Source: an uncultured bacterium
GTDB taxonomy: Bacteria > Verrucomicrobiota > Lentisphaeria > Victivallales > UBA1829
Reading direction: 5' to 3'
Assembly (NCBI GenBank): GCA_902780135.1
Contig: CACZEK010000013.1
Span: 46,470-110,469, forward strand
Length of the DNA stretch: 64,000 bases
The translations under genes were made by a program, and so were the position numbers. The notes beneath the pieces are model-generated. The model was not told where the DNA came from. It saw only the letters and a program-made list of their open reading frames with translations, and did no database searches. Position 1 is the first letter of the stretch. Every line of letters begins with the position of its first letter. Below, in pieces: positions 6,214 through 36,321 of this stretch.

Positions 6214-6216
6214 AAA

Positions 6217-7950: not shown

Positions 7951-8219
7951 TTGTATTTATGTGTCGCATTTTTTAAACTGTAATACAATGTATGAGACAA
8001 GATTGCGTTATTCTTGGAGCAAACAATTAAAGAAATGAGGAATAACATGATAAAACAACCAAGATGGAAAACGGTTGAGTATTCCCGAACAAGAATAAAA
8101 GCGCGGGATCAACCGTAAAAAACAAACAAGCTTCTGAACAGGAAATAGATGAAGCAAGAAAAGTTATCGACAATTGGCGTGCCGCTCATGCCTTTCCTCT
8201 TCATGTTTTATACGTTCAT

Positions 8220-13185: not shown

Positions 13186-13364
13186 CGCTCCTGCAGCTCA
13201 GAGCCGGTTCTTGCTGTTGATGGGTGTGTAGTTTTCTTTTCATTTTCCCGATAGTGCCCCTTGAAAATGGAACGTTCCGCAATATATTAAAGGTAGATAG
13301 GTCTTTTTCGAGACGCAATCCCCCCCCATGAAGTAACATCCCATGAACAGGCAGGCCATACGAA

Positions 13365-14885
13365 ATGAAACCATCGGCTTATGCGGAAGAAGTCAAAGCA
13401 GAAGTGACTGCGCCTGCCGGAATTGAACAAGTTCGGGATGATCCTCCGCCTGAGCGGACGGAAGATCCCTTCGGGCTTCTCCTCGCTGAAAAAAGAGATG
13501 AAGAGGAGCGTCAAACGGGGATAGCGGCGCTGCTGAAAACGATTCTGCAGAACAGCAGCATGGCTGACGGGACAACGGACCCCGAGGAACTGATCGCCGG
13601 CATCATCGCCGAGATCGACAAGCGGCTTTCGGCACAGATCAACTTGATCCTGCACAATGAAGCATTCCAGCGGCTTGAGGGCACATGGCGCGGGCTTCAC
13701 TATCTCGTTTTTCAGTCTCCCACCGCCAACGACATCAAAATACGGGTCCTGAACCTATCGTTTCACGAGATGTTCAGCTGCCTGAAAAAATATCCCGGAA
13801 CGACCTGGGATCAGAGTCCCCTGTTCAAACTGATCTACGAATCCGAATTCGGGACGGCGGGCGGCGAGCCGTTCGGCTGCCTGATCGGGGATTATTATTT
13901 CGACGAAACGCCACCCCGCGTGGAAACGCTGAAGAGGATCGCGAAAATCGCGAGCGCAGCACACGTCCCGTTCATCTCGGGGACGTCGCCGGCGGTGATG
14001 AATATGGATTCCTGGCAGGAGCTCGCCAACCCCAGGGATTACAGCCGCATCTTCAATTCGCCCGAATATCTGACATGGCGGAACCTGCGGGACAATCCGG
14101 ACAGCCGGTATATCGCACTGACGCTGCCGAGAGTCCTGGCGCGCATCCCGTACGGGAGCCGGACTTCGCCTGTCAACGGAATGGATTTCGAGGAAGACGT
14201 GGGTGCTGGAGTCCCGCACAATCACTGCTGGATGAATGCGGCGTTCGTCATGGGGGGCAACGTGATCCGGGCGTATGCGAAATATGGCTGGTGCGTCCGC
14301 ATCTACGGATTCGACGGCGGAAGCTGCACGGATCTACTGCCATCCGGGCAATACCCGTTTTACGAGGATTCCCCGGTCCCGTCCCCGCTGGAGATCGCGA
14401 TCACGGACCAGCGCGAGACGGAGCTTTCCCGCAACGGTTTTCTGGCACTGTGCAGCCTGAAAAACACGAACCGCGCGGTATTCCAGAGCGGACAGACGCT
14501 GTATAAAGCCAAAACGTTTTCAACCAATGCGGCCACAAAGAACGAGGAATTGTCTTCCAAACTGCCCTGCGTATTCGCTGTAAGCCGTTTCGCGCACTAC
14601 CTGAAGTGCATCCTGAGAGACAAGATCGGCGGATTCCAGGCCCCGAAGGAAATGGAACGATGGCTGAACGACTGGCTGGCGGACTATGTATCCGGGGACC
14701 CGGACGCCCCGGACGAGATCAAGGCGAAATACCCCATGGCCGAGGCGCGCGTCAGAGTGGTCCCGCATCGGGATAAACCCGGTCACTTCGAAGCGGAGAT
14801 ATACCTTCGTCCGCACTATCAGCTCGACGGCCTGACAGCGGCAATCAAACTGATCGCGCAAATTCCGGAAAGAGATAAGATCTGA
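13365..14885 (+). CDS. tssC: T6SS contractile sheath large subunit TssC/VipB, second paralog (no adjacent tssB)
   Basis: 506 aa. Collinear with the 495-aa TssC at 34268-35755, with shared blocks such as 'TAGGEPFGCLIGDYYF', 'MNMDSWQ', 'RFAHYLKCI.RDKIG.F' and 'YLRPHYQL.GLT'. Identity is roughly 55-65% by eye after the first ~75 residues, which are unalignable. Confidence 0.9.
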   Translation: MKPSAYAEEVKAEVTAPAGIEQVRDDPPPERTEDPFGLLLAEKRDEEERQTGIAALLKTILQNSSMADGTTDPEELIAGIIAEIDKRLSAQINLILHNEAFQRLEGTWRGLHYLVFQSPTANDIKIRVLNLSFHEMFSCLKKYPGTTWDQSPLFKLIYESEFGTAGGEPFGCLIGDYYFDETPPRVETLKRIAKIASAAHVPFISGTSPAVMNMDSWQELANPRDYSRIFNSPEYLTWRNLRDNPDSRYIALTLPRVLARIPYGSRTSPVNGMDFEEDVGAGVPHNHCWMNAAFVMGGNVIRAYAKYGWCVRIYGFDGGSCTDLLPSGQYPFYEDSPVPSPLEIAITDQRETELSRNGFLALCSLKNTNRAVFQSGQTLYKAKTFSTNAATKNEELSSKLPCVFAVSRFAHYLKCILRDKIGGFQAPKEMERWLNDWLADYVSGDPDAPDEIKAKYPMAEARVRVVPHRDKPGHFEAEIYLRPHYQLDGLTAAIKLIAQIPERDKI

Positions 14886-14887
14886 GC

Positions 14888-15421
14888 ATGGAAAACCAAA
14901 CCGTTCAATACCGCTCACCCAAAAAACAGGACCGGTTTCTGCCGTGCCTGATGGCGCGGCTTACGGACAACGAGCCGCAGAACCGAATCGATCATATCCC
15001 GCAGATGTTCACGGTGGAGCAGCTGAAAAAGAACATCCTGAAGAACCTGGAGATGATCCTGAATTCAAGTTCGCGCCTGTCCGTGGACGAAAAGGAATGC
15101 GGCGCCATCGTCCGGGATTCCGTGCTGTTTCTGGGGCTCCCGAATTTTTCCGGCCGTCCGAGCAGCAAAGACGCCATCGACGAGCTCCGACAGGAGATCA
15201 TACATCAGATTCATTGTTTCGAACCTCGGATCAAAGCCGACACCCTGGAAGTCGAACTGGAGGAAACACCTGAATTCGGGGACGAGTATATCCTCCGCAT
15301 TTCTGGAACGGTCATGGCGGATCCGATCAACGAGTTCATCGTATTCGAGCAGAAAGTACTCTGGGACGCGGGATCCCTTTCCATCCTTCCCGAAGCGCAG
15401 AACGGAGGCAATCATGGATAA
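14888..15421 (+). CDS. tssE: T6SS baseplate subunit TssE (gp25-like)
   Basis: 177 aa. 'LMARLTDNEP', 'LKKNILKNLEMILNSSSR', 'SVLFLGLPNFSG' and 'FEPRI' are typical of the TssE/GPW_gp25 family. Confidence 0.9.
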   Translation: MENQTVQYRSPKKQDRFLPCLMARLTDNEPQNRIDHIPQMFTVEQLKKNILKNLEMILNSSSRLSVDEKECGAIVRDSVLFLGLPNFSGRPSSKDAIDELRQEIIHQIHCFEPRIKADTLEVELEETPEFGDEYILRISGTVMADPINEFIVFEQKVLWDAGSLSILPEAQNGGNHG

Positions 15422-17213
15422 ATCTTTGTTGGATTACTATCAGGAGAATCTGGAATATCTGCGGGATCAGGGAAGAGATTTTGCAAGAGAGTTTCCAAAG
15501 ATCGCGTCCCGACTGGAGATCACGGAAAATGAATGTGCGGATCCCTACGTCGAGCGCATTCTGGAAGGAACCGCTTTTCTGGCATCTAAAGTGGAACGCG
15601 AGCTGGACGAGAGCATGCCCAGGATGCTGGAATCCTTTTGGGGTAATACGATGCCCGTGGCTCTGGATCTGATCCCGTCGTTCTCGATTGCCGAGCTGAA
15701 GGATCTGGACCGGAGCAGCATCCCGGCGCATCCCGGGGGGCTCCCGGCGGGCAACCGTTTCGAGATCATGATGGAAGGCGTCAAGTCTCCATGCACGTTC
15801 TCCACGATGATACCTCTTTCCGTCCAGCCCGTGTCCTTGCAGGAGGTGCGTTATCTCAGTCTGGAGCTGGGAAAGTACGATCTGACAGCCAACGCCGGGC
15901 TGTATCTGAATTTTCAGCGGCTCGCGGACATCCCGCTCAAAGAATACCCCGACGATCTTCTAGTCTATCTGGATATGCCGGGGGAAATGGCGTCCAGGCT
16001 GCAGCAGCATCTCCAGACGGAATGTACGGCGATCTATGCCCTTGTCGACGGGCGGCCGCAGGCCGTGGACGGGATTCGTTTTACCATCCCGATGCTTGCC
16101 GAAGACGGGGAACCGACCTGGCCGGAGATTAAGGCTTCCGAACAGAAGTCTCTCTATCAGTTTGCCGTGTTCCAGCCCATGTTCCGTTTTATCCGAATTC
16201 ACGGATTCGGCCGGGTCCTGAAGAAAACCGCCGGCGAATCGCTGGAACTGATCATTACGTTCCGGAACCGCTGTTCCGACTTCATCCAGGTGATCGAGAA
16301 AAAAAACCTGCGCCTCAACTGCGTCCCGGTCTGCAATCTTTTCCGGAAAAAGTCCGACAGGATGCTGCTCGGGATGAAAGTACAGCACCATCTGGTCCCC
16401 GACCGGACCGCGCCGCTGGATTTCGAAGTGTCGCGCGTCCTCGGCGTTTCGATTTTCGACAACGGGAACCGGAAGCTGCTGGATCTGCACCGGCTGTTCG
16501 ACGCGGATTTTACGGCGGACGGGGAGGACTCGTTCAATTTCTTCTCCGTGCAGAGAGTCCCCCGGCTGAGGGGCGACACGGAGAAACGGCGTTCGACCTA
16601 TTCCGGGCAGGAAGTCTTCCTGTCGTTCAGCGGAGAGAAGTATCTGGAAATCCAGCAGAACGCCGTTCAGTTTTCGGCGGAAATGCTTTGCACAAACCGG
16701 GATCTTCCGCTGTTCCTGCGGAACGGCGCGGCACTGAAGGCAAAGGATTCCGGGCTGTTCAGGTCTGCGGTTCTGGTGACCTCCCCGACCGCGCCCGGGG
16801 CTCCGCTTCTGAGCGGGTTCGGGAAGGAATATGCGGAGAAAGCGGCATTTTATCTGCTTCATTTCTCCGACATGCTCTGGTGCGACAAGACGACATCCGG
16901 GGAGATGCTTCAGAAGATCATCCACATGCACATCCCGCGCAACCGGGAAGAGCTGTCCGGGCTGGAACGCAGTGTCATCACGATGGAGAGTACAAAAGAA
17001 GTATTCCGCTATGTTCTCCGCGGGCAGGTGTTCTTCGAGTCCGGCTGGAAAGTCCGTCTGGTTTTGGACGAGCTCGCATGCGCCGGTATCGGGTATTACA
17101 CGTTCGGCTGTGTCCTGCGGGAAATCCTGCGGAATTACAAGCCCGTCAATATGCCGGCGAAAATCATACTGGAAACAAAACAGCAGGGAGTGATCGCGGA
17201 ATGGATGATCTGA
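15414..17213 (+). CDS. tssF: T6SS baseplate subunit TssF (ImpG/VasA)
   Basis: 599 aa. N-terminus 'LLDYYQENLEYLRDQGRDFAREFPKIASRLE...DPYVERILEGTAFLASKV' is the canonical TssF start. Overlaps the tssE stop and the tssG start. Confidence 0.92.
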   Translation: MDKSLLDYYQENLEYLRDQGRDFAREFPKIASRLEITENECADPYVERILEGTAFLASKVERELDESMPRMLESFWGNTMPVALDLIPSFSIAELKDLDRSSIPAHPGGLPAGNRFEIMMEGVKSPCTFSTMIPLSVQPVSLQEVRYLSLELGKYDLTANAGLYLNFQRLADIPLKEYPDDLLVYLDMPGEMASRLQQHLQTECTAIYALVDGRPQAVDGIRFTIPMLAEDGEPTWPEIKASEQKSLYQFAVFQPMFRFIRIHGFGRVLKKTAGESLELIITFRNRCSDFIQVIEKKNLRLNCVPVCNLFRKKSDRMLLGMKVQHHLVPDRTAPLDFEVSRVLGVSIFDNGNRKLLDLHRLFDADFTADGEDSFNFFSVQRVPRLRGDTEKRRSTYSGQEVFLSFSGEKYLEIQQNAVQFSAEMLCTNRDLPLFLRNGAALKAKDSGLFRSAVLVTSPTAPGAPLLSGFGKEYAEKAAFYLLHFSDMLWCDKTTSGEMLQKIIHMHIPRNREELSGLERSVITMESTKEVFRYVLRGQVFFESGWKVRLVLDELACAGIGYYTFGCVLREILRNYKPVNMPAKIILETKQQGVIAEWMI

Positions 17214-18259
17214 AACGGTTCCACAAACAGATCGCATCCCTGCTGTCGTCCGGGAAGATGGAGCCGGACTTCTTTGAAGTGGTCCGGCAGTTCGAGCAGC
17301 AGCATCCAGAGCTTCCCCGCATCGGTTATGCCAGGCGGAGCAGCCAGGAGGCGCTGCGGTTCGGGCAGACGCCGTCGCTGCATTTCTCGGAAACGGTGAT
17401 GGATTCCCTGCAGGAGGGGCCGGACGGCGCGATGCGGCTGTTCGTCAATTTCTTCGGGCTGTGCGGGGTGAACGGGCCGATGCCGCTGGAGTTCACGTCC
17501 ACGGTCTTCCAGCGTTCCCACAACCATTACGACCGCACTATCCAGCGTTTTCTGGACATCGTGAATCATCCTTTTCTCCGGTTGTATTACCGGGCTTACG
17601 CGGATCATACCGCGGCGATCTGCTGCGACCGTCCGAAGGAGAGCTTCGTGGAACGGCTCTTCAAGGTCCTGCTCGCGCAGCCGGACGGAATCGCGGACAG
17701 CAGAAAAAAGAAAAACCTGTGGTTTGCCGAAAGCGCCCATCTCGTCAGCACACGGCGAAGCCGCGGCGGTCTGTTCCGGGTCCTGTCCGATGTTCTGCAT
17801 ATTCCGGTTTCCATCGAGGAGCGTGTGACGGGACATTACGACATCCCGCGGCATTATCTGTGCCGTCTCGGGACGGACAGGCAATCCCAACTGGGGGTCA
17901 ACACGCAAATCGGCAGGCATTTCCTCAGCAACACGAAGAAGATCGGGATCCATTTCGGGCCTATCGATTTCAGGCGGTACTGCTGCTTCCTGCCGGAACG
18001 CGAATCGTTCTCCCTGATCGCGTCGGTGACCAGCCGCTTTTTTGAGAACCCGATGGAATACGATTTCATCTTCTGTCTGAAGACCGATACTCTGCCTCCT
18101 GCCACACTGAACCGGACCGTCGCCCTGGGGCACAGCGCCTGGCTGGGGCGTCCCCGGGGGCAGGAAACATCCGTCAGGCTGGACGCCAGCCGGATCTTCA
18201 CGGAACTGCACAAGAAAAAACAGACATCTCAACCTCCCGTAACAGTAAGGAGTCTTTAA
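17201..18259 (+). CDS. tssG: T6SS baseplate subunit TssG (ImpH/VasB)
   Basis: The tracked ORF (16688-18259) is open far upstream inside tssF. The in-frame ATG at 17201 ('MDDLKRFHKQIASLL...FFEVVRQFEQ...PRIGYA....EALRFGQTPSLHF') gives a 352-aa TssG-like protein overlapping tssF by 13 nt. Confidence 0.88.
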   Translation: MDDLKRFHKQIASLLSSGKMEPDFFEVVRQFEQQHPELPRIGYARRSSQEALRFGQTPSLHFSETVMDSLQEGPDGAMRLFVNFFGLCGVNGPMPLEFTSTVFQRSHNHYDRTIQRFLDIVNHPFLRLYYRAYADHTAAICCDRPKESFVERLFKVLLAQPDGIADSRKKKNLWFAESAHLVSTRRSRGGLFRVLSDVLHIPVSIEERVTGHYDIPRHYLCRLGTDRQSQLGVNTQIGRHFLSNTKKIGIHFGPIDFRRYCCFLPERESFSLIASVTSRFFENPMEYDFIFCLKTDTLPPATLNRTVALGHSAWLGRPRGQETSVRLDASRIFTELHKKKQTSQPPVTVRSL

Positions 18260-18260
18260 A

Positions 18261-18551
18261 ATGCCCATGCCGATCGCTGTTATGACATCGCACACCGGAA
18301 CCGGAGACACCGTGGTCGGGCCCGGTTCCACGAAAGTCCTGTGTAAGGGAAAACCCGCCGTGACCATGGGGGCATCCGTCACGGGAGCCGCATGCGTCGG
18401 GACGGCGGCGGTCAATCCAAACCCGCAGGTCCTGGTCGAGAACAAACCTGTGCTGCACCTGACGTCCCAGGCGACCGGCAGCAATCCCGCAACGGGCGCT
18501 CCTGTTACAACTCCCATTATCGACACTTCGGCCACGACGATCCTGTCGTAA
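18261..18551 (+). CDS. PAAR-like (DUF4150-type) spike-tip protein
   Basis: 96 aa, Gly/Thr/Val-rich with short beta-strand repeats ('VLCKGKPAVTMG', 'VLVENKPVLHLTS'). Sits directly between tssG and vgrG. Confidence 0.75.
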   Translation: MPMPIAVMTSHTGTGDTVVGPGSTKVLCKGKPAVTMGASVTGAACVGTAAVNPNPQVLVENKPVLHLTSQATGSNPATGAPVTTPIIDTSATTILS

Positions 18552-18564
18552 GAAAACGAGGTCC

Positions 18565-21500
18565 ATGATGCCAAGAACAATCAAGACAAGATACTGCAAG
18601 CTGCTGATTGGGCCAACGCAGTCCGGGGCGGGAACCACGGAGGAAGCGTTCGACGCCAGCAGCATGGAAGATGATTTCCTGACGGAAAAAGTCCGGGTCT
18701 CGGAAGGGATCTCCATGATCCCGTTTGCCGAAATCGAAGCGTATTCCGGCAAGAGCACGAAAAACTACCAGGAACTCTGCGAACTGCTGGACCAGCCCGC
18801 CCGCCTGATCCTGCGGCAGAAAAACGGCGAAAGCCGCACGATCGTCGGCAAGGTCTCGCACGTCACGCACCTCGGAATCTGCCGGGCCAATCCGCGCATG
18901 GCTCCGATTTACCGTTACCGCCTTACGGTTTCGTCCGTCCTGAACGATATGCGGTTCGTGCGGCAGTCCAGGACCTTCGAGCAGCAGACATTCGAAGCCG
19001 TGATCCGGGCGGTCCTGAGTTATTACGGCATCACCCCGACATTCCGTTGCACGACGCCCGAAAACACCGATTTCTACAACAAACAGCACAATTTCTACCA
19101 GCGGAGCGAATCCGATTACGATTTCTTCCGGCGGGTCCTGTTCGACGCCGGATGGAGCTTCCGCATCTATACGACGGGCGAGGAACAGCTGACGGCTCAG
19201 GAGGCCGTCCTGATCACCGACGGCAATTATTTCTCCGCGGCGGGCGACGATACGGAATTCACGGCGTCCTGGAACGTGAAAGACGATGACCTGACGGTCA
19301 ACGTCAGAGACTGGAGCATGGAGCAGGACGTCGGGATCGATTCCCTTGTGACCGATTCCTCCGTTTTCGACGCCAACGATGGAAAACGCACGTGGTTTCT
19401 GAACGCGACGGGTTCGCTCTTCGCCGCGGATACCGGCGACGACGCCAAAAAGGAATACGAGGATCATCGGGCGGACAATCTGGACCGGTTCCTGACATTC
19501 AACCGGCAGTGCTGCAAAGGCATTGCCACCTCCCTGAACCTCTACCCCGGATGCGTGATCAATCTGAGCGATTTCTATGGACCGTCCGACGAAGTCATCC
19601 GCTCCAGGATCACGAAACTGGAAATCAACATCACGGACCGCCTGCCGGAAGGATACCCGGTTTCCGGCCTTCCCCCCGAACTGACGATTCAACTCAGGGG
19701 AATCGACACGTCTTCCGAAAAGGTCCCGCTGTTCGCGGACGACATGGAGTCGGCGGAACAGCAACGGAACACGGTTCATGCGGAGAAGACCGTCGGAGCC
19801 GCCGCCGTGGCGGCTGTCTCGACAGCTGCGGCGGAGACGGTCGGCGCGATCCGGCAGACCGTTTTCACCGCTACGGTCAGCACGAAGGACGGAAATACGA
19901 AGGACAATCACAATTCCGTCTGCACCATGGTGACGGACGAGAACACGAAAGGGATGTTCTTCTATGCCGTCCTGGACGGGTCGACAAAAGCTTTCCTCAT
20001 TCAGTTCACGATGCCGCTCGGCGGATTCGGGCAGGGCCTGTACCGTCTGCCCCGGCTGGGAGACAGGATCGTAGTCATGGCGGTCACCGAGAACCGTTAT
20101 GTGCTGGTCAGCTATATCCCCTCCCCCGATTCGATGCCGTTCGTCGACAAGGGTCATGTCGGGAATTCCCAGAAGATGACGGTGCTGCGGCACAACGTCC
20201 CCGGCACAGTGCCCAGTTACTACGGCACTGCCGCGGACAATCCGGACCCCACGATATACAAGAGCCTCAAGTACAGCGAAATCGGGATGTACAGCGAAGA
20301 CGACAGGGAGGTCATGCGTCTCCAGACGCCGGGCTACCGGTATGACCATGCGGAAAAGGATTCGATCGCCACGGCCGCGAACTTCCTGTTCTCCACGCCG
20401 GACAACAACAAGGGGGAATTCCATGTCGCCAAGGTCAACAAGATCAATCTTCAGGCGGACGAGGAAATCCGCATCCAGGTCGGGCGCACGTGCATCACCC
20501 TCAACGAAAAGATGGTCGAATTCCGGATCCGCCAGGCAAAAGGCGCCGGGGGACCGCAGGATTCCGTGCTCTACATGAATCCCTTCGGGATATTCATGAG
20601 CGCATCCAAGATCAACGTGATCGGGCAGAACAGGATCGACATGGAAGCCGGACTGGGCGAGGTCCTCAGCATGTCCGGCGGCGTGGTCTGCCTGGCCGGA
20701 CGGTACATCAATCTGTCGACCGTCGACACGACCTACCTGACCCTCTCCCAGACACTCAATGCGGCCCTGGGGGTGCTGAACGCCGCGTCGTTCGCAGTCG
20801 GAATCGTCGATGATGCCGGCATCAGTAAACGCACCTATGCCGATGCGGTCAAGGGCGGCAAGATCGATACCGATAAACTGCGGGCGATGGAATCAAGTCC
20901 GCTTGATGTCTATACGCAGCTCCTGTACATGGGCGGCGGCATGACGTCCTCGATCGTTTTCTTCTTAGATGCTACCCTCTCGAAAATGCACTGGACGCCG
21001 TTCTTTGCTACCGGAGACAATTCCTCCAATATCGCAGGCGCCACCCTCAGTATTCTGGATGCGGCCGCCTCCGTCACCCTGTCCGGTCTGCTGTGGGCAA
21101 TCACGAATCAGACGGCACGGGCAATCGCCTGCGATTCCCTGATCTTTGCACTTACCGAAGCAAAATACATCTATCTGTGCACAAGAGCGCAATCGATCAA
21201 GATCAAAAAGAATCAGGTCAGCTATCTCCGCCTGAGCGGAGAGATGACGGAGTTCTGGACGAAGGAAATGCTGGCGGATACGGGGAAACTCACCATGAAC
21301 GTGTATGACATTCCGACCGTTGCCGCAAAAACCTCCGACATGAGTCTTTCCCAAAACGAATTCTCGCTTTTGTCGCAGATCCTCGCCGCTCCCTCCAATT
21401 ACGCGCAATCCATGGCGCATGCGCTTGTCGTGGAAGAAGCGCTTGCCGCGACCCAGGAGATGAAACGGCAAATGGCAAAGGTCCAGATCCAAATGGATTC

Positions 21501-21765
21501 CTCGTCGATGAGTCACATGAGTCCGAAATGGGATGCGGAGATGGACAATGTCACCTTCAAGTCCAAAACGAAGATCGATGTTACGGTCGGAGCGCAGTCG
21601 AAGATCACGATCGATTCGTCCGGGCTGACGGAAAAAGTGGCCAAGCTGACGCAGAAATTGACGACCCTTGAGATCAAGGCAACAAAAATGACCACGACTG
21701 CCAACTGCTATACAGTCAAATTCACCCAGAGTAGAATGCAGGGGCAGATGATGCAACTCGGATAA
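18565..21765 (+). CDS. vgrG: VgrG (TssI) spike protein with a long non-canonical C-terminal extension
   Basis: 1066 aa. The N-terminal ~650 aa are gp27/gp5-like in layout ('ARLILRQKNGESRTIVGKVSHVTHLG', 'GLYRLPRLGDRIVVMAV', and beta-helix-like 'INLQADEEIRIQVGRTCITLNEKMVEFRI'). Residues ~690-1066 are hydrophobic/helical, then return to beta-repeat character. Confidence 0.85.
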   Translation: MMPRTIKTRYCKLLIGPTQSGAGTTEEAFDASSMEDDFLTEKVRVSEGISMIPFAEIEAYSGKSTKNYQELCELLDQPARLILRQKNGESRTIVGKVSHVTHLGICRANPRMAPIYRYRLTVSSVLNDMRFVRQSRTFEQQTFEAVIRAVLSYYGITPTFRCTTPENTDFYNKQHNFYQRSESDYDFFRRVLFDAGWSFRIYTTGEEQLTAQEAVLITDGNYFSAAGDDTEFTASWNVKDDDLTVNVRDWSMEQDVGIDSLVTDSSVFDANDGKRTWFLNATGSLFAADTGDDAKKEYEDHRADNLDRFLTFNRQCCKGIATSLNLYPGCVINLSDFYGPSDEVIRSRITKLEINITDRLPEGYPVSGLPPELTIQLRGIDTSSEKVPLFADDMESAEQQRNTVHAEKTVGAAAVAAVSTAAAETVGAIRQTVFTATVSTKDGNTKDNHNSVCTMVTDENTKGMFFYAVLDGSTKAFLIQFTMPLGGFGQGLYRLPRLGDRIVVMAVTENRYVLVSYIPSPDSMPFVDKGHVGNSQKMTVLRHNVPGTVPSYYGTAADNPDPTIYKSLKYSEIGMYSEDDREVMRLQTPGYRYDHAEKDSIATAANFLFSTPDNNKGEFHVAKVNKINLQADEEIRIQVGRTCITLNEKMVEFRIRQAKGAGGPQDSVLYMNPFGIFMSASKINVIGQNRIDMEAGLGEVLSMSGGVVCLAGRYINLSTVDTTYLTLSQTLNAALGVLNAASFAVGIVDDAGISKRTYADAVKGGKIDTDKLRAMESSPLDVYTQLLYMGGGMTSSIVFFLDATLSKMHWTPFFATGDNSSNIAGATLSILDAAASVTLSGLLWAITNQTARAIACDSLIFALTEAKYIYLCTRAQSIKIKKNQVSYLRLSGEMTEFWTKEMLADTGKLTMNVYDIPTVAAKTSDMSLSQNEFSLLSQILAAPSNYAQSMAHALVVEEALAATQEMKRQMAKVQIQMDSSSMSHMSPKWDAEMDNVTFKSKTKIDVTVGAQSKITIDSSGLTEKVAKLTQKLTTLEIKATKMTTTANCYTVKFTQSRMQGQMMQLG

Positions 21766-21776: not shown

Positions 21777-22916
21777 ATGTCGGATCAGTTGAACTGGATG
21801 AATCAGCATTTGATTCTGTTGAAATACAAGACCGTCGAGGAACTGGTTTCCCAGGGCGGATACGAACTTGCACCGAAATACGGCCCCCTCTGCAAACCGG
21901 GGATGTCCGTCGAGGACTTCATGACGGCGCTTGTGCGGGCAAATGCGATCCGCGACGCCGCTTCCGTCCTCGCCTACGCGATCCACCGCCGCGCCGGCGT
22001 CTGGTGGGGCGTCTGCTGTTTCAGGAAACTCTACGCCGAGCTTGCCGAGGCGGAAAAGAAACAGGCGGAACAGGCGAAGCTCGACGCCCAGAAGAAGGAG
22101 GAGGAAGCCGCCGCGGCTGCCGCGGAGGCGAAGGAGAAAGCGAAGGAGGAGGAGGCACAGGAGGCGGAGGCCGCCGCCCAGGAGAAGAAGATCGCGGAGA
22201 TGCAGGAAGCCGCTATGAAGAAAATCGAGGAGGCGAAGAGCAAATTCACGCCGGAGCAGAAAAAAATATACGATGAAGCCCGGGCAAAGTTTGATGCGGA
22301 ATGCGTGAAGCTGACCGGCCTTCCCGTGATGGCATTCATCAACGACATGGTGAAGAAGGAAGCGGAATCCGAGGCGGCGAAACAGAGCCTGAAGCAGAAG
22401 CCGGAGAAAAAGGACGCGCCGCCTGCGCCGGTCGAGGAGAATGCCGACACTTCGGACGACCCGATGCCGCCCGAAATGCTGGCGCAGCTGAAGCGGAAAG
22501 CCTTTGAGATCACCTGCCAATGGGTCGTCGATCCGTCCGCGGAAAACTCCATCATGGCGGACAATATCGCGAACCAGATCGAAGACGAATCGGAAGGCAT
22601 GCTGGCGCGTACCGCGTTCTGGAGCTACGGCAATCTATCCGTGGCGGAAAAGGACGGCAGCAACGTTCCGGTCCCCGCCGGACTGGCCGCGAACGGTCTG
22701 CGGACAGCACTCCTGATGGCGATGCTGACGGAGGGCGGTCTCTATTCGCTACCGGAACGCGCCGCACAGTATCTTTCGCTGGGCATCGAGATCGCCTGCG
22801 GAAGGAACAACTGGACTGCCCCGGAAACGGAACAGAATGCTCCGTCCGCGCGGGAGCCGGAGGCATCCCACGGAACGGAAAAACTCGGGGAAGAGGTTTA
22901 TCGCAAATGGAAATGA
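21777..22916 (+). CDS. Hypothetical T6SS-associated protein with a central Glu/Ala/Lys-rich low-complexity region
   Basis: 379-aa ORF 12 nt after vgrG. The folded-looking N-terminus has 'AIHRRAGVWWGVCCF'. The centre is 'AEAEKKQAEQAKLDAQKKEEEAAAAAAEAKEKAKEEEAQEAEAAAQEKK'. The C-terminal ~140 aa look structured. I recognise no domain. Confidence 0.6.
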   Translation: MSDQLNWMNQHLILLKYKTVEELVSQGGYELAPKYGPLCKPGMSVEDFMTALVRANAIRDAASVLAYAIHRRAGVWWGVCCFRKLYAELAEAEKKQAEQAKLDAQKKEEEAAAAAAEAKEKAKEEEAQEAEAAAQEKKIAEMQEAAMKKIEEAKSKFTPEQKKIYDEARAKFDAECVKLTGLPVMAFINDMVKKEAESEAAKQSLKQKPEKKDAPPAPVEENADTSDDPMPPEMLAQLKRKAFEITCQWVVDPSAENSIMADNIANQIEDESEGMLARTAFWSYGNLSVAEKDGSNVPVPAGLAANGLRTALLMAMLTEGGLYSLPERAAQYLSLGIEIACGRNNWTAPETEQNAPSAREPEASHGTEKLGEEVYRKWK

Positions 22917-23051
22917 CCGTGTCTTGCAAACGTACGAACGCATGCTATATTATTAATTATAGCTCCGTTTCAGCTTCCAACCGGATAATTACGCTCAGTC
23001 GTGGAAGCGGTCTATCCCGCTTTTCCACGTTCATTCAGGAGATTGGATAAC

Positions 23052-23606
23052 ATGAAAAAAACAGAGTTGCTTTTCGGTATCCCGCTGGCTCTGCTGATGC
23101 TTGCCGGATGCTCTTCCCCGGCTTACGACATCGAGGTGTACATGTCGCCGAAAGTGAAGGAAAAATACCAGATCCGCCCCTCCCTCGAGGTGGATATCGT
23201 CGGAGTCAGCCAGTCCGGGGACGAGCATTTCCAGGCTGTCCCGGTTAATGACTACTTCACGCCGGGCAATGCGCTCCGGGACGGCACGGAACACGCGACG
23301 CTTCATTTCTCCGAGGCGAACGGTGCTCCGAAGCTCCTTCCGAAATCGGACGAGATCTGGAAAAAGTTTGCGGACAGTTCCTCCGCCAAGCTCTATCTGC
23401 TGGTCAATCTGCCTTTGCCGACCGACAGCAAACAGAAAACCGATCCCCGGAAAGTCGCGATCCCCCTGGAAAGCACCGGCTGGTTCGGCTCCGATACTCG
23501 TTACTTCGAAATCTCCACGTCGGGGTTGAACCCGCTGAAAAAACGCCCGGACTACGCAACCGAAGAAATCCAGACCGAAAAGAAGGAGGAAAATCATGAG
23601 ATTTGA
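23052..23606 (+). CDS. tssJ: Outer-membrane lipoprotein, TssJ-like
   Basis: The in-frame ATG at 23052 gives 'MKKTELLFGIPLALLMLAGC|SS', a lipobox signal peptide. The 184-aa size and the position immediately upstream of tssK-tssL-tssM fit TssJ. Sequence similarity to TssJ is judged only loosely ('PSLEVDIVGVS...F'). Confidence 0.55.
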   Translation: MKKTELLFGIPLALLMLAGCSSPAYDIEVYMSPKVKEKYQIRPSLEVDIVGVSQSGDEHFQAVPVNDYFTPGNALRDGTEHATLHFSEANGAPKLLPKSDEIWKKFADSSSAKLYLLVNLPLPTDSKQKTDPRKVAIPLESTGWFGSDTRYFEISTSGLNPLKKRPDYATEEIQTEKKEENHEI

Positions 23607-24978
23607 AAAAGCATTGCACTGGTCGGAAGGTCTTTTCCTTCAGCAGCACCATTTCCAATATTTCCAGCGGTTCCTGCAGAACCGGGACCGCCAGGACCGG
23701 GAACTCGTCCTGTCCTATCCCTGGGGGTTCATCGATTATGAAGTCGATACGGAGGCGCTGGAGAATCTCCGCGTCACGGTGAAACGAGTCACGGCGATCT
23801 TCCCGGAAGGCGAAGAAGTCAGCATGCCCGGAAACGCCGTGGTTCCGCCGCTGGACCTGAAGGGCCTTCTTGCGGACGTCCACGACCCCTTCATGGTCTA
23901 TCTGGCGCTGCCGCTCCACAGTAAAAACGACAGCAATCTCGCTGAGGCCCCGGGCGAAAAACGGATGTATCTCCCCGAGGAAGTGTCCTGCTGTGACGAT
24001 TATACTGGGCGCAGCGAGATCACCATGGTCGAAGACCGCCTGAACGTCTGGATCACGACGTCCCTGCAGGACAACGCGGATCTGGACCTGCTTCCCCTGA
24101 TGCGCCTGATCCCGCAGAGCAACGGCATCTCGGAGATCAAAGTGGAGATCGACCGGAACTATATCCCGCCCTATCTTCTGATCTCGTCCTGCTCCGTCTG
24201 CATGAACCGATTCCGGGAGCTGATCAGCCTGATGGAACGCCGCCGCGACAAGATTCTGAACGATCTTCAGGTTATGGGCTATACGCCGGACATGTTTACG
24301 GGCGCGGTCGGACATTCCATCATGCAGCTTTCGATCCTGAACGAATGCATCGGCCGGTTCGTCTCCATCGCCGAACATTGCGCTTTGACGCCGTATGAAA
24401 TGTATTTGCAGCTCGGCTCGCTGGCCGGCAAATTGTCGGCGTTCCGGCCGTTGCGGAAATGGGAGGATATTTCCCGGTACGAACATGAAAACTTCGCCCC
24501 GCAGTTCAACGAATTGATCTTGTGGATACGGGCCATGCTCCTCGCGGACGGGGACACGATCTTCCTGCGCCTCGACTTTGCTCCCGACCGGGACGAGCGC
24601 CATCTCTCCGTGGAACTCACCGACGACAACCTCAACCGCGCCGACGAGTTCTATCTGGCGGTCCATTGTCAGGGGAACGCCCGCGAAATCGTCGATGCGG
24701 TGGAGAAAGGCGACAACCTGCGCCTTACCGGACTCAAGATGGCAGATCGGCGCATTCGCGGCGTCAAACTGACCGAAATGCGTTATCCGCCTCGCTATTT
24801 CCCCGCTCTTCCCGATACGGTCTGGTTCCTGCTCGACCGGGGCGAAGCGTCCGCCCCGTTCTGGCGGATGATCCGCGAGGACCACACGGTCATTCTGGAC
24901 TGGGCACGATCCGTCTTCCCTGATCTGGAAGCCAGCCTGTTCATTACGCTTTCCGAACATGGGGACACCGCGAAATGA
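23596..24978 (+). CDS. tssK: T6SS baseplate subunit TssK (ImpJ/VasE)
   Basis: 460 aa. The start 'MRFEKALHWSEGLFLQQHHFQYFQRF' is the canonical TssK N-terminus. RBS aggagga lies upstream. Confidence 0.9.
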   Translation: MRFEKALHWSEGLFLQQHHFQYFQRFLQNRDRQDRELVLSYPWGFIDYEVDTEALENLRVTVKRVTAIFPEGEEVSMPGNAVVPPLDLKGLLADVHDPFMVYLALPLHSKNDSNLAEAPGEKRMYLPEEVSCCDDYTGRSEITMVEDRLNVWITTSLQDNADLDLLPLMRLIPQSNGISEIKVEIDRNYIPPYLLISSCSVCMNRFRELISLMERRRDKILNDLQVMGYTPDMFTGAVGHSIMQLSILNECIGRFVSIAEHCALTPYEMYLQLGSLAGKLSAFRPLRKWEDISRYEHENFAPQFNELILWIRAMLLADGDTIFLRLDFAPDRDERHLSVELTDDNLNRADEFYLAVHCQGNAREIVDAVEKGDNLRLTGLKMADRRIRGVKLTEMRYPPRYFPALPDTVWFLLDRGEASAPFWRMIREDHTVILDWARSVFPDLEASLFITLSEHGDTAK

Positions 24979-26051
24979 GAGAGCTGGAACAGCTTTGTCG
25001 CCCGCTGGTCCGGTCGCTCTGCGAATACTGGTATTATGCCTGCCGCGGAGTCTCGCTGGACATGGAGGTCGTCAATCATTCTCTGCGGGAGCACCTGATC
25101 CGGATCCGCGAACAGGTCGAAGATGACGGTCGCCTGAAACGGGAATTCCAGAAGATCGAACAGCCGCTGGTATTCTTCATCGACTATACCGTCAAGGAAG
25201 GACATTTCCCGTTCCGGGACCAGTGGACGGAAATCGCCCGGGACTACAACGAGCTGTCCGGCGACGAAAAGTTTTTCGACCTGCTGTCGGACAGTCTGGA
25301 CGATCCCGATTCCTCGGAACAGTTGATGATGTTTTACCTGTTCATGGGACTTGGATTCGACGGGTGCCATGTCGACGACCGCGAATATGTCCAGCGGCGG
25401 ATGAAGGTCTGCTCCGCCCGGATCCAGCTCCCCGCCGCGTCGGAGGAGACCTTGTCGTCTGAGGATATTGATGAGCGGCCGGCGTATTTCATGAAAAGCC
25501 GCTTCCGCTTCTTTTCTGTCTATACGCTGTTGACGATTCTTACCATTTGTCTGCTGGGCTCTCTGGGCTGGAATTTCTGGGTTCTGTATCAGGAAACCGG
25601 AGATTTTCGTGATGCACTGGGCAAAGCCGTGAAAGCCGCGGGAAAAGTGTCCCTTTCTTCGCCCGCGAAAACGACGCAGCAGGAGACAAAGCCGCAATCG
25701 CAGCCCGTACAGCCGCCGGACATCAAGCCGATGCCGCAGCCGACGCAGCAGATGGATGCTCAACACCTGAAGCAGCAGATGGAGGCATCGCTGATGCCGC
25801 AACAGGACACCAAGACGAATCAGCAGTCCTCTGATGCACAACTGACGCAACAACCGAACGCGCCGCAGACGCAACAGCCGGAGGGGCTGGCTCAACAACT
25901 GGAGACTCTGCTGGAGCAACAGCAGAAGGCACAGGCGGAACAACTCCAGAAGGCCCAGGCCGCACAACAGCCGGACACACAGGCCGCACAACAGCCGGAT
26001 GCTCAGGTGCAACAGCCGGATGCAAAGCAGCAGTCGAAGGAGGGCAATTGA
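24975..26051 (+). CDS. tssL: T6SS membrane-complex subunit TssL (DotU/ImpK) with a Q/P-rich C-terminal tail
   Basis: 358 aa. DotU-like cytoplasmic domain ('LVFFIDYTVKE', 'MFYLFMGLGFDG'). One TM segment ('FFSVYTLLTILTICLLGSLGWNFWVLY'). Then ~130 aa of Gln/Pro-rich low complexity with no OmpA-like peptidoglycan-binding motif. Confidence 0.85.
   Translation: MRELEQLCRPLVRSLCEYWYYACRGVSLDMEVVNHSLREHLIRIREQVEDDGRLKREFQKIEQPLVFFIDYTVKEGHFPFRDQWTEIARDYNELSGDEKFFDLLSDSLDDPDSSEQLMMFYLFMGLGFDGCHVDDREYVQRRMKVCSARIQLPAASEETLSSEDIDERPAYFMKSRFRFFSVYTLLTILTICLLGSLGWNFWVLYQETGDFRDALGKAVKAAGKVSLSSPAKTTQQETKPQSQPVQPPDIKPMPQPTQQMDAQHLKQQMEASLMPQQDTKTNQQSSDAQLTQQPNAPQTQQPEGLAQQLETLLEQQQKAQAEQLQKAQAAQQPDTQAAQQPDAQVQQPDAKQQSKEGN
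25962..26030 (+). repeat. Short imperfect tandem repeat (GCACAACAGCCGGA-type unit, 3 copies) encoding AQQPD repeats in the TssL tail
   Basis: 'gcacaacagccggac', 'gcacaacagccggat' and 'gcaacagccggat' occur at ~23-24-nt spacing. Confidence 0.6.
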
Positions 26052-26052
26052 T

Positions 26053-33668: not shown

Positions 33669-33754
33669 GGGGATATCCCTGTTAAGTGGACTCTGAACTC
33701 AAACAAAGAAAAAAAAAGAGCCGGAAAACCAGTTCCGGCTCTGCGATCAAAAAA

Positions 33755-34243: not shown

Positions 34244-34267
34244 TTTTCGAGCCTTTCTTAGGTTAGA

Positions 34268-35755: not shown

Positions 35756-35761
35756 GATTCG

Positions 35762-36283: not shown

Positions 36284-36321
36284 AGTTTTTCTCCTGGGTT
36301 ATTTGAGAGGTTTAGGTTAGT

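What the first reader, a model, noticed from the sequence alone, without database searches (positions are those of the whole stretch)
13365..14885. Second, tssB-less tssC paralog heading the baseplate/membrane arm, with an unrelated N-terminus
Two full-length TssC genes occur in one cluster, at 13365-14885 and 34268-35755, but there is only one tssB. The paralogs align over ~430 aa at roughly 55-65% identity by eye. Their first ~75 residues are unalignable: the paralog has an acidic/Pro-rich N-terminus, 'EVTAPAGIEQVRDDPPPERTEDPFGLLLAEKRDEEERQ'.

Established knowledge: sheath assembly needs TssB-TssC heterodimers, and the TssC N-terminal region is the handle recognised by ClpV for disassembly.

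Inference: TssC2 could co-polymerise with the single TssB to make a sheath with altered recycling, or act as a sheath cap, initiator or regulator. It could also be a duplicated gene on its way to a new function.
Basis: partly seen in the sequence, partly recalled or inferred. Interest (0 to 1): 0.6.

Follow-up and report, generated by a model that had tools for sequence, protein, structure and literature searches.

The report
Diverged second T6SS sheath subunit
A type VI secretion gene cluster from a gut Lentisphaeria bacterium has a second, fast-evolving copy of the large sheath protein at the head of its baseplate operon; second copies like this are already known in Agrobacterium and Rhizobium, so this is a new variant, most likely a low-copy sheath subunit that works at the baseplate.

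Summary
tssC2 (13365-14885, +) and tssC1 (34268-35755, -) are both full-length TssC genes, 54% identical over 453 aa, and the window has only one tssB.

Only about the first 46-49 residues of TssC2 fail to align, not 75. A weak colinear remnant of the canonical N-terminal helix survives there.

TssC2 is not a decaying duplicate. dN/dS is 0.03-0.08. It defines a metagenome-only clade, always found as tssC2-tssE-tssF-tssG-PAAR-vgrG..., never with tssB beside it.

Between two Lentisphaeria lineages, TssC1 is 92% identical and TssC2 only 69%. That matches baseplate proteins. TssC2's codon usage also matches the baseplate genes.

The extra divergence lies in the N-terminal tail and the C-terminal, handshake-containing part. 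The helix that packs against TssB in the P. aeruginosa structure is well conserved.

The two-tssC, one-tssB layout is already known (Agrobacterium TssC41/TssC40, Rhizobium ImpC/ImpD, Tateyamaria). ImpD-type proteins arose independently. They also sit just before tssE, lack the N-terminal region and evolve faster.

Best reading, inferred and not shown: a low-copy sheath paralog forming the baseplate-proximal ring, like Pvc4 in extracellular contractile injection systems. This is a new variant of a known kind.

The parts
13261..13288 (+). sigma-70-like promoter candidate for the tssC2-led operon (TTGAAA, 16 nt spacer, TATATT)
   Evidence: Matches 10 of 12 consensus positions. The block is conserved in the 89%-identical relatives L089 and L090, whereas similarity upstream of about 13225 is lost. 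This is a consensus match only; function is not shown.
13365..14885 (+). tssC2: diverged paralog of the T6SS large sheath subunit, 506 aa
   Evidence: Pfam VipB 80-379 and VipB_2 390-500. TIGR03355 542.7 bits. 54% identical to TssC1. Best solved relative is 5n8n_B, P. aeruginosa TssC1, E 6e-152. Fold match TM 0.74-0.87. dN/dS 0.08 against L089.
13365..13502 (+). N-terminal tail of TssC2, residues 1-46: acidic, Pro-rich and variable
   Evidence: No BLAST similarity to TssC1. AF2 pLDDT below 50 for residues 1-50. dN/dS 0.30 for residues 1-49, with in-frame indels only. Length and sequence vary across the TssC2 clade. The canonical columns F22, L25, F30 and P32, at least 95% conserved in 109 canonical TssC, are not kept.
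13464..13496 (+). DPFGLLLAEKR (residues 34-44): possible remnant of the canonical N-terminal helix SDFEKLLNQEF
   Evidence: Aligned colinearly by a global hhalign run, with low column confidence. Conserved as EDPFxxLLAEK in five close relatives, L089 and L094-L097. Absent from the other TssC2 sublineages.
13503..13646 (+). Residues 47-94: equivalents of P. aeruginosa TssC1 helix H1 (E39-E54), the following loop, and helix S66-M86, which packs on a TssB helix
   Evidence: The phmmer alignment maps TssC2 50-502 to P. aeruginosa TssC1 42-494. Helix definitions come from PMC5807055. I81, A82, E83, D85, R87, A90, N93, I95, L96 and H97 are invariant in the TssC2 clade.
14295..14384 (+). Most remodelled structured segment of TssC2 (about residues 311-340, equivalent to TssC1 301-330)
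   Evidence: 10 of 15 canonical near-invariant columns are changed and window identity drops to 23%. AF2 pLDDT is below 50 at residues 317-337. Its place in the sheath lattice was not mapped.
14888..15421 (+). tssE (gp25-like baseplate protein), starting 2 nt after the tssC2 stop codon
   Evidence: Pfam GPW_gp25. The same 0-7 nt spacing or overlap is seen in L081, L082, L095-L098 and L092. In L091 a 102-aa ORF overlaps the tssC2 stop.
15414..18259 (+). tssF (15414-17213) and tssG (about 17201-18259)
   Evidence: Pfam T6SS_TssF and T6SS_TssG. Gene calls in L092.
18261..21765 (+). PAAR-like gene (18261-18551) and vgrG (18565-21765)
   Evidence: Pfam PAAR_motif is weak, E 5.5e-4 and below the gathering score. 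Phage_GPD.
21777..30966 (+). DUF6931 gene (21777-22916), unassigned 201-aa ORF (23001-23606), tssK (23596-24978), tssL (24975-26051), tssM (25999-30966)
   Evidence: Pfam DUF6931 and T6SS_VasE. Pfam DotU and IcmF-related_N.
31035..34243 (-). clpV (31035-33668) and hcp (33755-34243)
   Evidence: Pfam AAA_2, AAA_lid_9, ClpB_D2-small and T6SS_HCP.
34268..35755 (-). tssC1: canonical large sheath subunit, 495 aa, starting 6 nt after the tssB stop codon
   Evidence: Pfam VipB + VipB_2. TIGR03355 725.7 bits over profile positions 2-473. 84-86% identical to TssC of the gut Alphaproteobacteria MAG loci L001-L006 and 92% to a second Lentisphaeria lineage.
35762..37380 (-). tssB (35762-36283), the only tssB in the window, and tssA (36322-37380)
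   Evidence: Pfam T6SS_VipA and ImpA_N. Six-frame tblastn and HMM searches find no second tssB.

Best explanation
TssC2 is a functional, selectively maintained paralog of the T6SS large sheath subunit, in a cluster whose closest solved relative is the P. aeruginosa H1 sheath. The host is a gut or rumen Lentisphaeria bacterium.

It is the first gene of the baseplate and membrane-complex operon and is tightly coupled to tssE.

Most likely mechanism (inferred): TssC2 pairs with the single TssB. It is made in baseplate-like, low amounts. It forms the sheath ring that docks on TssE and the TssF/G/K wedge, and bulk TssB-TssC1 polymerises on that ring. Because its N-terminal handle is degenerate, this ring is not recognised, or is recognised differently, by ClpV.

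This is the role a dedicated sheath paralog (Pvc4) plays next to the gp25-like protein in extracellular contractile injection systems. It would also explain why the independently evolved second TssC of Agrobacterium (TssC40/ImpD) is essential but not redundant with TssC41.

Shown here: identity, fold, selection, synteny, relative evolutionary rates and where the divergence lies. Inferred: binding to TssB, low copy number, position in the machine and the relation to ClpV.
For: 1. It is a real TssC under selection.
- Pfam and TIGR03355 hits and the fold match.
- dN/dS is 0.03-0.045 in the core and 0.30 in the N-terminal tail.

2. The architecture is conserved.
- At least 8 distinct genomic contexts share it: the window, L081, L082, L086, L089, L091, L096/L097 and L098. 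Wherever the downstream DNA is held, tssC2 is followed directly by tssE-F-G-PAAR-vgrG-DUF6931-x-tssK.
- Unrelated genes lie upstream and no tssB is nearby.
- A promoter-like site lies upstream and is conserved in close relatives.
- tssC2 stops 2 nt before tssE, while tssC1 starts 6 nt after tssB.

3. It evolves at the rate of baseplate proteins. Window against a second lineage whose whole cluster was reconstructed (L098 + L115, which overlap over 2589 bp at 100%):
- TssB 96%, TssC1 92%, Hcp 84%.
- TssC2 69%.
- TssK 71%, TssF 64%, TssG 64%.
- In 213 canonical locus pairs with TssF 60-70% identical, TssC is 81-95% identical. TssC2 orthologs are 63-68%.

4. Codon usage resembles the baseplate genes.
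- Effective number of codons (ENC) is 43.0 for TssC2 and 35.6 for TssC1.
- The sheath-versus-baseplate codon log-likelihood is -0.122 for TssC2, equal to TssE and TssK. It is 0.003 for TssC1.

5. The divergence is not evenly spread.
- Canonical near-invariant columns changed: 22 of 107 in TssC1 residues 76-300, against 53 of 121 in residues 301-500. Fisher p = 2e-4.
- Canonical orthologs show the opposite gradient.
- The equivalent of the P. aeruginosa helix that packs on TssB is among the best conserved segments.

6. There is a convergent precedent. Rhizobium ImpD is only 35% identical to TssC2, whereas TssC2 is 54% identical to TssC1, so ImpD arose separately.
- ImpD sits before tagJ-tssE.
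- It lacks the first ~55 residues.
- It evolves about twice as fast as ImpC: 81.6% against 90.5% identity between two Rhizobium species.
- Agrobacterium TssC40 is essential for Hcp secretion, and TssB and TssC41 still accumulate without it (PMC3702570).

7. There is a mechanistic analogue. Pvc4 is the 'sheath initiator', joined by beta-strand exchange to the gp25-like Pvc9 (PMC12546770).
Against: - No experiment or complex model places TssC2 at the baseplate.
- From my own knowledge, not checked here: well-studied T6SSs such as V. cholerae, P. aeruginosa H1 and EAEC assemble TssB/TssC directly on TssE without a dedicated paralog.
- In the P0011 lineage, tssC2 follows clpV (L086). Adjacency to tssE could not be seen there because the contig ends.
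- The window's own sublineage keeps a conserved EDPFxxLLAEK motif. The tail may therefore still bind something, possibly ClpV.
- L089 and L090 carry a 1-nt deletion that splits the gene. If real, some strains tolerate its loss.
- Codon usage and rate arguments are indirect. A minor co-polymerising subunit could show the same signals.
- Mapping divergence onto 'lattice contacts' rests on domain descriptions in a paper, not on coordinates.
Confidence: 0.4

Rival explanations
1. TssC2 is a minor co-polymerising sheath subunit. TssB-TssC2 protomers are scattered along the TssB-TssC1 sheath and alter ClpV recycling, stability or contraction.
For: - TssC2 keeps the whole TssC fold, the C-terminal arm and the equivalent of the TssB-packing helix.
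- There is only one TssB to pair with.
Against: - A subunit occupying ordinary lattice positions should be constrained like TssC1. Instead it evolves about 4 times faster, and 86 of 247 near-invariant canonical columns are changed, concentrated in the handshake-containing C-terminal part.
- Its codon usage and operon position match low-copy baseplate genes, not tssB, tssC1 or hcp.
Confidence: 0.2
2. TssC2 works at the distal end of the sheath, in a terminal ring that interacts with TssA to control polymerisation or length.
For: - A terminal ring also has non-equivalent lattice contacts and low copy number, so it fits the rate, codon and divergence patterns equally well.
- The cluster encodes a TssA with an ImpA_N domain.
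Against: - Gene linkage is to tssE-F-G in every lineage where the downstream DNA is held, not to tssA. In the colinear cluster, tssA lies next to tssB-tssC1, about 18 kb from tssC2.
- Rhizobium ImpD is likewise next to tagJ-tssE.
Confidence: 0.1
3. TssC2 no longer works as a lattice subunit. It is an assembly factor or regulator that uses the sheath fold to bind TssB, TssE or ClpV, for example as a chaperone or decoy that times sheath polymerisation.
For: - Constraint on lattice-forming parts is relaxed while the equivalent of the TssB-packing helix is retained.
- The tail is acidic and predicted with low confidence, and carries a motif conserved within one sublineage.
Against: - The core is still under very strong purifying selection, dN/dS 0.03-0.045, including the C-terminal gp25-like domain.
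- That domain and the C-terminal arm are kept at full length in all intact clade members aligned. This level of preservation is more than simple binding would need.
Confidence: 0.1
4. TssC2 is a redundant or decaying duplicate, or a leftover of a cluster fusion, with no role of its own.
For: - L089 and L090 have a frameshift allele.
- The sheath arm and the baseplate arm of the window show discordant similarity to gut Alphaproteobacteria clusters: TssC1 86% against TssF 36%.
Against: - dN/dS is 0.08 overall, and 0.045 even downstream of the frameshift.
- The ORF is intact and synteny is conserved in lineages down to 62% identity.
- Within Lentisphaeria, TssC1 and TssF divergence is concordant: 92% and 64%, on the canonical trend.
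- The analogous Agrobacterium TssC40 is essential.
Confidence: 0.05

Closest known systems
Agrobacterium tumefaciens TssC40 (Atu4340) / Rhizobium ImpD: the second TssC of the imp cluster
   Same: - It is a second TssC-family gene in a cluster with a single tssB, lying immediately 5' of the baseplate genes (tssC-tssC-tagJ-tssE-F-G).
- The canonical N-terminal region is missing: the TIGR03355 match starts at profile position 48.
- It evolves faster than the first copy: 81.6% against 90.5% identity between two Rhizobium species.
- In Agrobacterium it is essential for Hcp secretion, and TssB and TssC41 still accumulate without it (PMC3702570).
   Different: - The origin is independent. TssC2 is 54% identical to its own TssC1 but 35% to ImpD, and ImpD is 34-37% identical to ImpC and to TssC1.
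- In shared-character counts, TssC2 sides 11:0 with the canonical proteins of its own subfamily against ImpC + ImpD.
- ImpD is adjacent to the first tssC, and tagJ separates it from tssE. TssC2 is about 18-19 kb from tssC1, heads its own operon, and no TagJ was detected.
- ImpD is N-terminally truncated (462 aa). TssC2 keeps a variable tail of about 46 aa plus the H1-like helix.
Canonical TssC of H1-type T6SS (P. aeruginosa TssC1, PDB 5N8N; the window's own TssC1)
   Same: - Same fold and domain order: E 6e-152 to 5n8n_B and TM 0.74-0.81.
- The equivalents of helix H1, the TssB-packing helix, the gp25-like C-terminal domain and the C-terminal arm are all present.
   Different: - The conserved N-terminal motif is lost.
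- 86 of 247 near-invariant columns are changed.
- The rate is about 4 times higher.
- It is not adjacent to tssB or hcp but to tssE.
- Its codon usage is unlike tssB, tssC1 and hcp.
Sheath-initiator paralog of extracellular contractile injection systems (Pvc4 of Photorhabdus PVC)
   Same: This is a similarity of function only. One of several sheath paralogs forms the single layer that joins the gp25-like adaptor (Pvc9, the TssE counterpart) by beta-strand exchange, and it nucleates the bulk sheath (PMC12546770).
   Different: - Nothing beyond the shared sheath fold links them: Foldseek TM 0.27-0.33 to PVC and AFP sheath chains.
- Those systems are not recycled by ClpV and have no TssB-like small subunit.
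- The role of TssC2 is inferred, not observed.
Roseobacter TssCL, and Tateyamaria clusters with two tssC and one tssB
   Same: These are further reports of extra TssC-family genes in one T6SS cluster with a single tssB (PMC9515649).
   Different: - TssCL is a 1684-aa protein with two VipA domains and one VipB domain.
- The Tateyamaria pairs are 34-37% identical.
- They were not compared here at the sequence level.

Membership tests
TssC / VipB family (T6SS large sheath subunit) | VipB N-terminal domain plus gpW/gp25-like C-terminal domain | tested here: met
   PF05943 E 1.5e-107 (residues 80-379) and PF18945 E 3.3e-39 (residues 390-500).
TssC / VipB family (T6SS large sheath subunit) | Score above the curated cut-off of the NCBIfam equivalog TIGR03355 | tested here: met
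   542.7 bits against a cut-off of 271.5. The match covers profile positions 18-473 only.
TssC / VipB family (T6SS large sheath subunit) | Sheath fold like solved TssC chains | tested here: met
   AF2 model has mean pLDDT 72.6 and pTM 0.74. Foldseek gives E 3e-46 and TM 0.74/0.81 to 5n8n_B, and TM up to 0.87 to M. xanthus and V. cholerae sheaths.
TssC / VipB family (T6SS large sheath subunit) | Encoded within a T6SS gene cluster | tested here: met
   It is the first gene of tssC2-E-F-G-PAAR-vgrG-...-K-L-M. tssA-B-C1-hcp-clpV lies on the other strand.
TssC / VipB family (T6SS large sheath subunit) | Forms a heterodimer with TssB and polymerises into a contractile sheath | not testable with these tools
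   No multimer prediction or experiment was available. The only indirect support is conservation of the equivalent of the TssB-packing helix.
Canonical (orthologous, bulk) TssC of this T6SS subfamily | Conserved N-terminal motif [S/D]-[D/E]-F-E-x-L-L-x-x-E-F-K-P-K; columns F22, L25, F30 and P32 are at least 95% conserved in 109 proteins | tested here: not met
   The motif columns are not conserved in the TssC2 clade. Only a weak, sublineage-specific remnant, DPFxxLLAEK, is present.
Canonical (orthologous, bulk) TssC of this T6SS subfamily | Gene immediately downstream of tssB, and the slow evolutionary rate typical of TssC | tested here: not met
   No tssB lies within 10 kb. TssC2 orthologs are 63-69% identical where canonical TssC is 81-95%.
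ImpD / TssC40-type second TssC (Rhizobiaceae) | Belongs to the ImpD sequence clade | tested here: not met
   35% identity to R. phaseoli ImpD against 54% to its own TssC1. In shared-character counts TssC2 sides 11:0 with the canonical group of its own subfamily.
ImpD / TssC40-type second TssC (Rhizobiaceae) | Second tssC, with one tssB, placed just upstream of the tssE-F-G genes | tested here: met
   The window and related loci. Rhizobium loci for comparison. tagJ is absent here.
ImpD / TssC40-type second TssC (Rhizobiaceae) | Essential for Hcp secretion and not redundant with the first TssC | not testable with these tools
   Known only for Agrobacterium (PMC3702570).
Sheath initiator of contractile injection systems (Pvc4-like role) | Forms the single sheath layer bound to the gp25-like adaptor | not testable with these tools
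   Analogy only (PMC12546770). Supported indirectly by the tssC2-tssE coupling and the rate and codon data.

The most novel reading that the evidence does not exclude
Some T6SSs have a dedicated sheath-initiator ring made of a specialised TssC paralog that is poorly recognised by ClpV and is paired with the common TssB. This solution evolved at least twice, as Lentisphaeria-type TssC2 and Rhizobiaceae ImpD/TssC40. It would give those T6SSs the tiered sheath seen in extracellular contractile injection systems, and would explain the unexplained essentiality of Agrobacterium TssC40.
Probability: 0.3. Interest if true: 0.7.

Novelty: new variant of a known kind. Interest (0 to 1): 0.45.

Why it matters
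How the first sheath ring is built on the T6SS baseplate, and what happens to it when ClpV strips the contracted sheath, is not well understood. The function of the second TssC in Agrobacterium and Rhizobium was not explained in any of the papers read here.

This window adds an independently evolved second TssC with the same three signatures:
- a position next to tssE
- a degenerated N-terminal handle
- an accelerated, baseplate-like rate of evolution

That convergence turns a curiosity of one model organism into a testable general hypothesis: a specialised junction subunit. The test can be run in a tractable system, Agrobacterium TssC40, even though the Lentisphaeria host is uncultured.

If the hypothesis is wrong and TssC2 co-polymerises along the sheath, it would be a natural example of a mixed sheath with tuned recycling, which is also useful. 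In either case automatic annotation calls both genes simply 'tssC', so the distinction is currently invisible in databases.

Tried and rejected
1. AlphaFold with the 17-sequence alignment A1 gave mean pLDDT 44 and was discarded. The 118-sequence alignment A2 gave a usable monomer. No multimer could be run, so the TssB-TssC2, TssC2-TssE and ClpV-peptide questions remain open.

2. The scan of 185,579 representative genomes found only canonical TssC, at most 55% identical. None of the 80 loci kept had a second tssC within 10 kb. The TssC2 clade appears only in metagenome assemblies. The patterns used were exact 8-mers, so divergent TssC2-like genes could have been missed.

3. A neighbour-joining tree rooted on ImpD places the TssC2 clade (bootstrap 100) outside all canonical TssC, including ImpC. 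I reject that position as long-branch attraction, for two reasons:
   - TssC2 identity falls in the same order as TssC1 identity: own TssC1 and gut Alphaproteobacteria, then Kiritimatiellota, Akkermansia, Betaproteobacteria, ImpC.
   - Shared-character counts favour an origin inside the gut-associated subclade: 11:0, 5:1 and 10:3. The numbers are small, so the branch point stays uncertain.

4. I considered a cluster-fusion origin, in which TssC2 is the old TssC of the baseplate arm. The reason was that TssC1 is 86% identical to Alphaproteobacteria clusters while TssF is only 36%. Within Lentisphaeria the two arms are concordant, and TssC2 is far more diverged than any canonical pair. Fusion alone therefore does not explain it. 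It is not excluded as the origin.

5. The frameshift in L089 and L090 was checked as evidence of pseudogenisation. The sequence downstream is still under purifying selection, and the change is a 1-nt loss in an A5 run. It is either recent or an assembly error.

6. Placing the remodelled TssC1 301-330 loop in the sheath lattice failed. No coordinates were available, and a literature search for the Azotobacter extended-sheath structure found nothing usable.

7. The Neorhizobium galegae locus L118 was too fragmented for a rate comparison. Rhizobium tumorigenes L119 was used instead.

8. Literature searches for 'tssC2' mostly returned TssC proteins of separate clusters, not in-cluster paralogs.
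Full report
**Observation**

The window holds a complete T6SS cluster in two convergent arms.
- The + strand carries tssC2 (13365-14885), tssE, tssF, tssG, a PAAR-like gene, vgrG, a DUF6931 gene, an unassigned ORF, tssK, tssL and tssM.
- The - strand carries tssA, tssB (35762-36283), tssC1 (34268-35755), hcp and clpV.

Both TssC proteins have the Pfam VipB and VipB_2 domains. Both pass the NCBIfam TssC equivalog: TssC2 542.7 bits, TssC1 725.7 bits, cut-off 271.5. They are 54% identical over 453 residues, TssC2 50-501 against TssC1 42-492.

A six-frame tblastn and a TssB profile HMM find exactly one tssB in the 64 kb. Upstream of tssC2 lie the end of a type I restriction gene (hsdR), then 1.1 kb of lower-GC DNA with one unassigned 110-aa ORF on the other strand.

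Two numbers need adjusting: identity is 54%, and the part with no detectable similarity is about 46-49 residues, not 75.

**What the N-terminus is**

The closest solved structure is the P. aeruginosa H1-T6SS sheath (5N8N; E 6e-152). TssC2 residues 50-502 align to P. aeruginosa TssC1 residues 42-494.

In that structure, residues 1-37 are unresolved. Helix H1 (E39-E54) and helix S66-M86 form the outer three-helix bundle together with a TssB helix (PMC5807055). TssC2 keeps the equivalents of both helices, at about residues 47-62 and 74-94. The second is one of the most conserved segments of the TssC2 clade.

What has changed is the flexible extreme N-terminus. In other T6SSs this carries the helix that ClpV grasps (PMC5048182).

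In 109 canonical relatives this stretch contains a nearly invariant motif, SDFEKLLNQEFKPK. In the TssC2 clade those columns are not conserved, and the tail varies widely in length and sequence.

In the window's own sublineage a colinear remnant, EDPFxxLLAEK, persists. It is preceded by about 33 acidic, proline-rich residues. AlphaFold confidence is below 50 for residues 1-50.

The tail is translated:
- Against an 89%-identical relative its dN/dS is 0.30, and all indels are in frame.
- The upstream AGG-rich stretch and the start codon are conserved.

**Is it a working gene?**

Yes, on the evidence available.
- dN/dS is 0.08 overall and 0.03-0.045 in the structured core.
- Ten further protein clusters at 60-89% identity form a clade that is distinct from canonical TssC, which is about 50-55% identical. 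The clade has 100% bootstrap support.
- All members come from metagenome assemblies. A scan of 185,579 representative genomes found none.
- Proteins at least 90% identical to the window's other genes are named 'Lentisphaeria bacterium'.

**Conserved architecture**

In every related contig where the downstream DNA is held, tssC2 is followed within a few nucleotides by tssE-tssF-tssG-PAAR-vgrG-DUF6931-x-tssK.

Upstream there is something unrelated each time: an IS66 transposase, an aldolase, a Sel1 protein, a 1238-aa protein, or 10 kb without any T6SS gene. A TssB HMM finds nothing near tssC2 in any of them.

A sigma-70-like site at 13261-13288 is conserved in close relatives, while the sequence further upstream is not.

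One lineage, sharing 69% TssC2 identity with the window, could be reconstructed completely from two loci that overlap over 2589 bp at 100%. It is colinear: tssC2-E-F-G-PAAR-vgrG-...-K-L-M-tssA-tssB-tssC1-hcp-clpV, with one tssB. In the window, the tssA-to-clpV block is inverted relative to this.

In another lineage (P0011), tssC2 follows hcp-clpV, which is the same cyclic gene order.

**Rate and expression proxies**

Ortholog identities between the window and the reconstructed lineage:

| Protein | Identity |
|---|---|
| TssB | 96% |
| TssC1 | 92% |
| Hcp | 84% |
| ClpV | 83% |
| TssA | 72% |
| TssK | 71% |
| TssC2 | 69% |
| TssF | 64% |
| TssG | 64% |
| TssE | 55% |
| TssM | 53% |

In 213 pairs of canonical clusters whose TssF is 60-70% identical, TssC is 81-95% identical, mean 90.8%. 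TssC2 orthologs at the same TssF distance are 63-68%. TssC2 therefore changes about four times faster than a bulk sheath subunit, at the pace of baseplate proteins.

Its codon usage points the same way:
- The effective number of codons (ENC) is 43.0, against 35.6 for tssC1.
- The sheath-versus-baseplate codon log-likelihood is -0.122, the same as tssE and tssK. For tssC1 it is 0.003.

**Where it diverged**

Of 247 columns that are at least 95% conserved in canonical TssC, 154 are retained in the TssC2 clade. The consensus has changed in 86.

The changes are unevenly spread:

| TssC1 residues | Conserved columns changed |
|---|---|
| 1-75 | 11 of 19 |
| 76-300 | 22 of 107 |
| 301-500 | 53 of 121 |

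The contrast between residues 76-300 and 301-500 gives Fisher p = 2e-4.

Canonical orthologs show the opposite pattern. For them residues 301-495 are the best conserved part: 63-88% against 54-77% for residues 76-300. TssC2 shows 50% against 60%.

The C-terminal part contains the gp25-like domain whose strands form the inter-subunit 'handshake' (PMC5807055).

My reading, which is an inference, is that contacts inside the TssB-TssC protomer are preserved while contacts with lattice neighbours have been remodelled.

**Comparison with what is known**

The two-tssC, one-tssB layout is not new.
- Rhizobium impC and impD were listed together as COG3517 genes in 2009 (PMC2660368).
- Agrobacterium TssC41 and TssC40 are both essential for Hcp secretion. 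TssB and TssC41 stabilise each other but still accumulate without TssC40 (PMC3702570).
- Annotated Rhizobium plasmids show tssA-tssB-tssC-tssC-tagJ-tssE-F-G.
- Tateyamaria clusters have two tssC and one tssB (PMC9515649).

The window's TssC2 is not an ImpD ortholog. It is 35% identical to ImpD but 54% to its own TssC1, and shared characters place it with the canonical proteins of its own subfamily.

The two paralog lineages nevertheless share three traits:
- Both lie just before tssE.
- Both have lost the canonical N-terminal region. ImpD starts about 55 residues in.
- Both evolve faster. ImpD is 81.6% identical between two Rhizobium species where ImpC is 90.5%.

**Mechanism proposed**

Taken together, the best-supported model is a low-copy, specialised sheath subunit. 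It pairs with the common TssB, forms the ring seated on TssE and the baseplate, and nucleates the TssB-TssC1 polymer. Its degenerate handle would leave it outside normal ClpV recycling.

A sheath paralog with this job exists in extracellular contractile injection systems. Pvc4, the 'sheath initiator', exchanges strands with the gp25-like Pvc9 (PMC12546770).

I give this model 0.4. The rivals are:
- a scattered minor co-polymer (0.2)
- a distal-end ring (0.1)
- a non-lattice assembly factor (0.1)
- a decaying duplicate (0.05)

The data do not settle where TssC2 sits in the machine. All evidence for its position is indirect: gene linkage, evolutionary rates, codon usage and the distribution of substitutions.

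**Verdict**

This is a real and correctly located feature. It is a new, independently evolved variant of a known but functionally unexplained kind of gene. Interest is moderate. Its main value is the convergence with ImpD/TssC40, which yields a concrete, testable hypothesis about how the sheath is started on the baseplate.

Noticed in passing
window 3203-12232: The type I restriction-modification operon (hsdM 3203-5077, hsdS 5074-6213, hsdR 9095-12232) is interrupted between hsdS and hsdR by a low-GC stretch (35-42% GC). The stretch carries a 577-aa ORF with no Pfam or NCBIfam hit (6217-7950) and a 292-aa ORF with a RelA/SpoT nucleotidyltransferase domain (8220-9098). This may be defence or toxin cargo inside the R-M operon.
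   Followed up: no
window 31035-37380 compared with L098 + L115: The tssA-tssB-tssC1-hcp-clpV block is inverted in the window relative to the fully colinear cluster of a second Lentisphaeria lineage. A third lineage (L086) has hcp-clpV-tssC2, which is the same cyclic gene order.
   Followed up: partly
window 34268-36283 and 15414-17213, compared with L001-L006: TssC1 and TssB are 84-86% and 82-84% identical to clusters of gut Alphaproteobacteria MAGs, yet TssF is only 32-37% identical. That is about 5 SD above the TssC-versus-TssF trend of the other canonical loci. The sheath arm may have been exchanged between phyla.
   Followed up: partly
L089 4125-5641 and L090 457-1973 (equivalent to window ~14460-14464): The 89%-identical relatives have a 1-nt deletion in an A5 run that splits tssC2 into 404-aa and 101-aa ORFs. 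The sequence downstream is still under purifying selection, so this is either a recent mutation or an assembly error.
   Followed up: partly
window 14295-14384 (TssC2 ~311-340; TssC1 301-330): The canonical loop GVESGGAVEGLPTHxFPTDDGG..KCPTE is nearly invariant in 109 canonical TssC. It is the most remodelled structured segment of TssC2, and its role in the sheath lattice could not be mapped.
   Followed up: partly
window 21777-23606 and 25999-30966: Pfam detected no TssJ or TagJ. A DUF6931 protein and an unassigned 201-aa ORF sit between vgrG and tssK in all related clusters. TssM is unusually long at 1655 aa.
   Followed up: no
window 51506-56701 (-): A 1731-aa protein combines Peptidase_C10, Peptidase_C11 (clostripain-like) and RTX calcium-binding repeats. 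It lies 14 kb from the T6SS cluster.
   Followed up: no
window 39363-44129 (-) and 44096-47002 (+): A 1588-aa ORF has no Pfam hit. Next to it, a 968-aa protein fuses an amino-acid permease to a histidine kinase and a receiver domain.
   Followed up: no
window ~12265 (L092 starts there): An independent 80-kb assembly of the same organism ends 1.1 kb upstream of tssC2, right at the end of hsdR. This suggests that the R-M region varies between strains.
   Followed up: no
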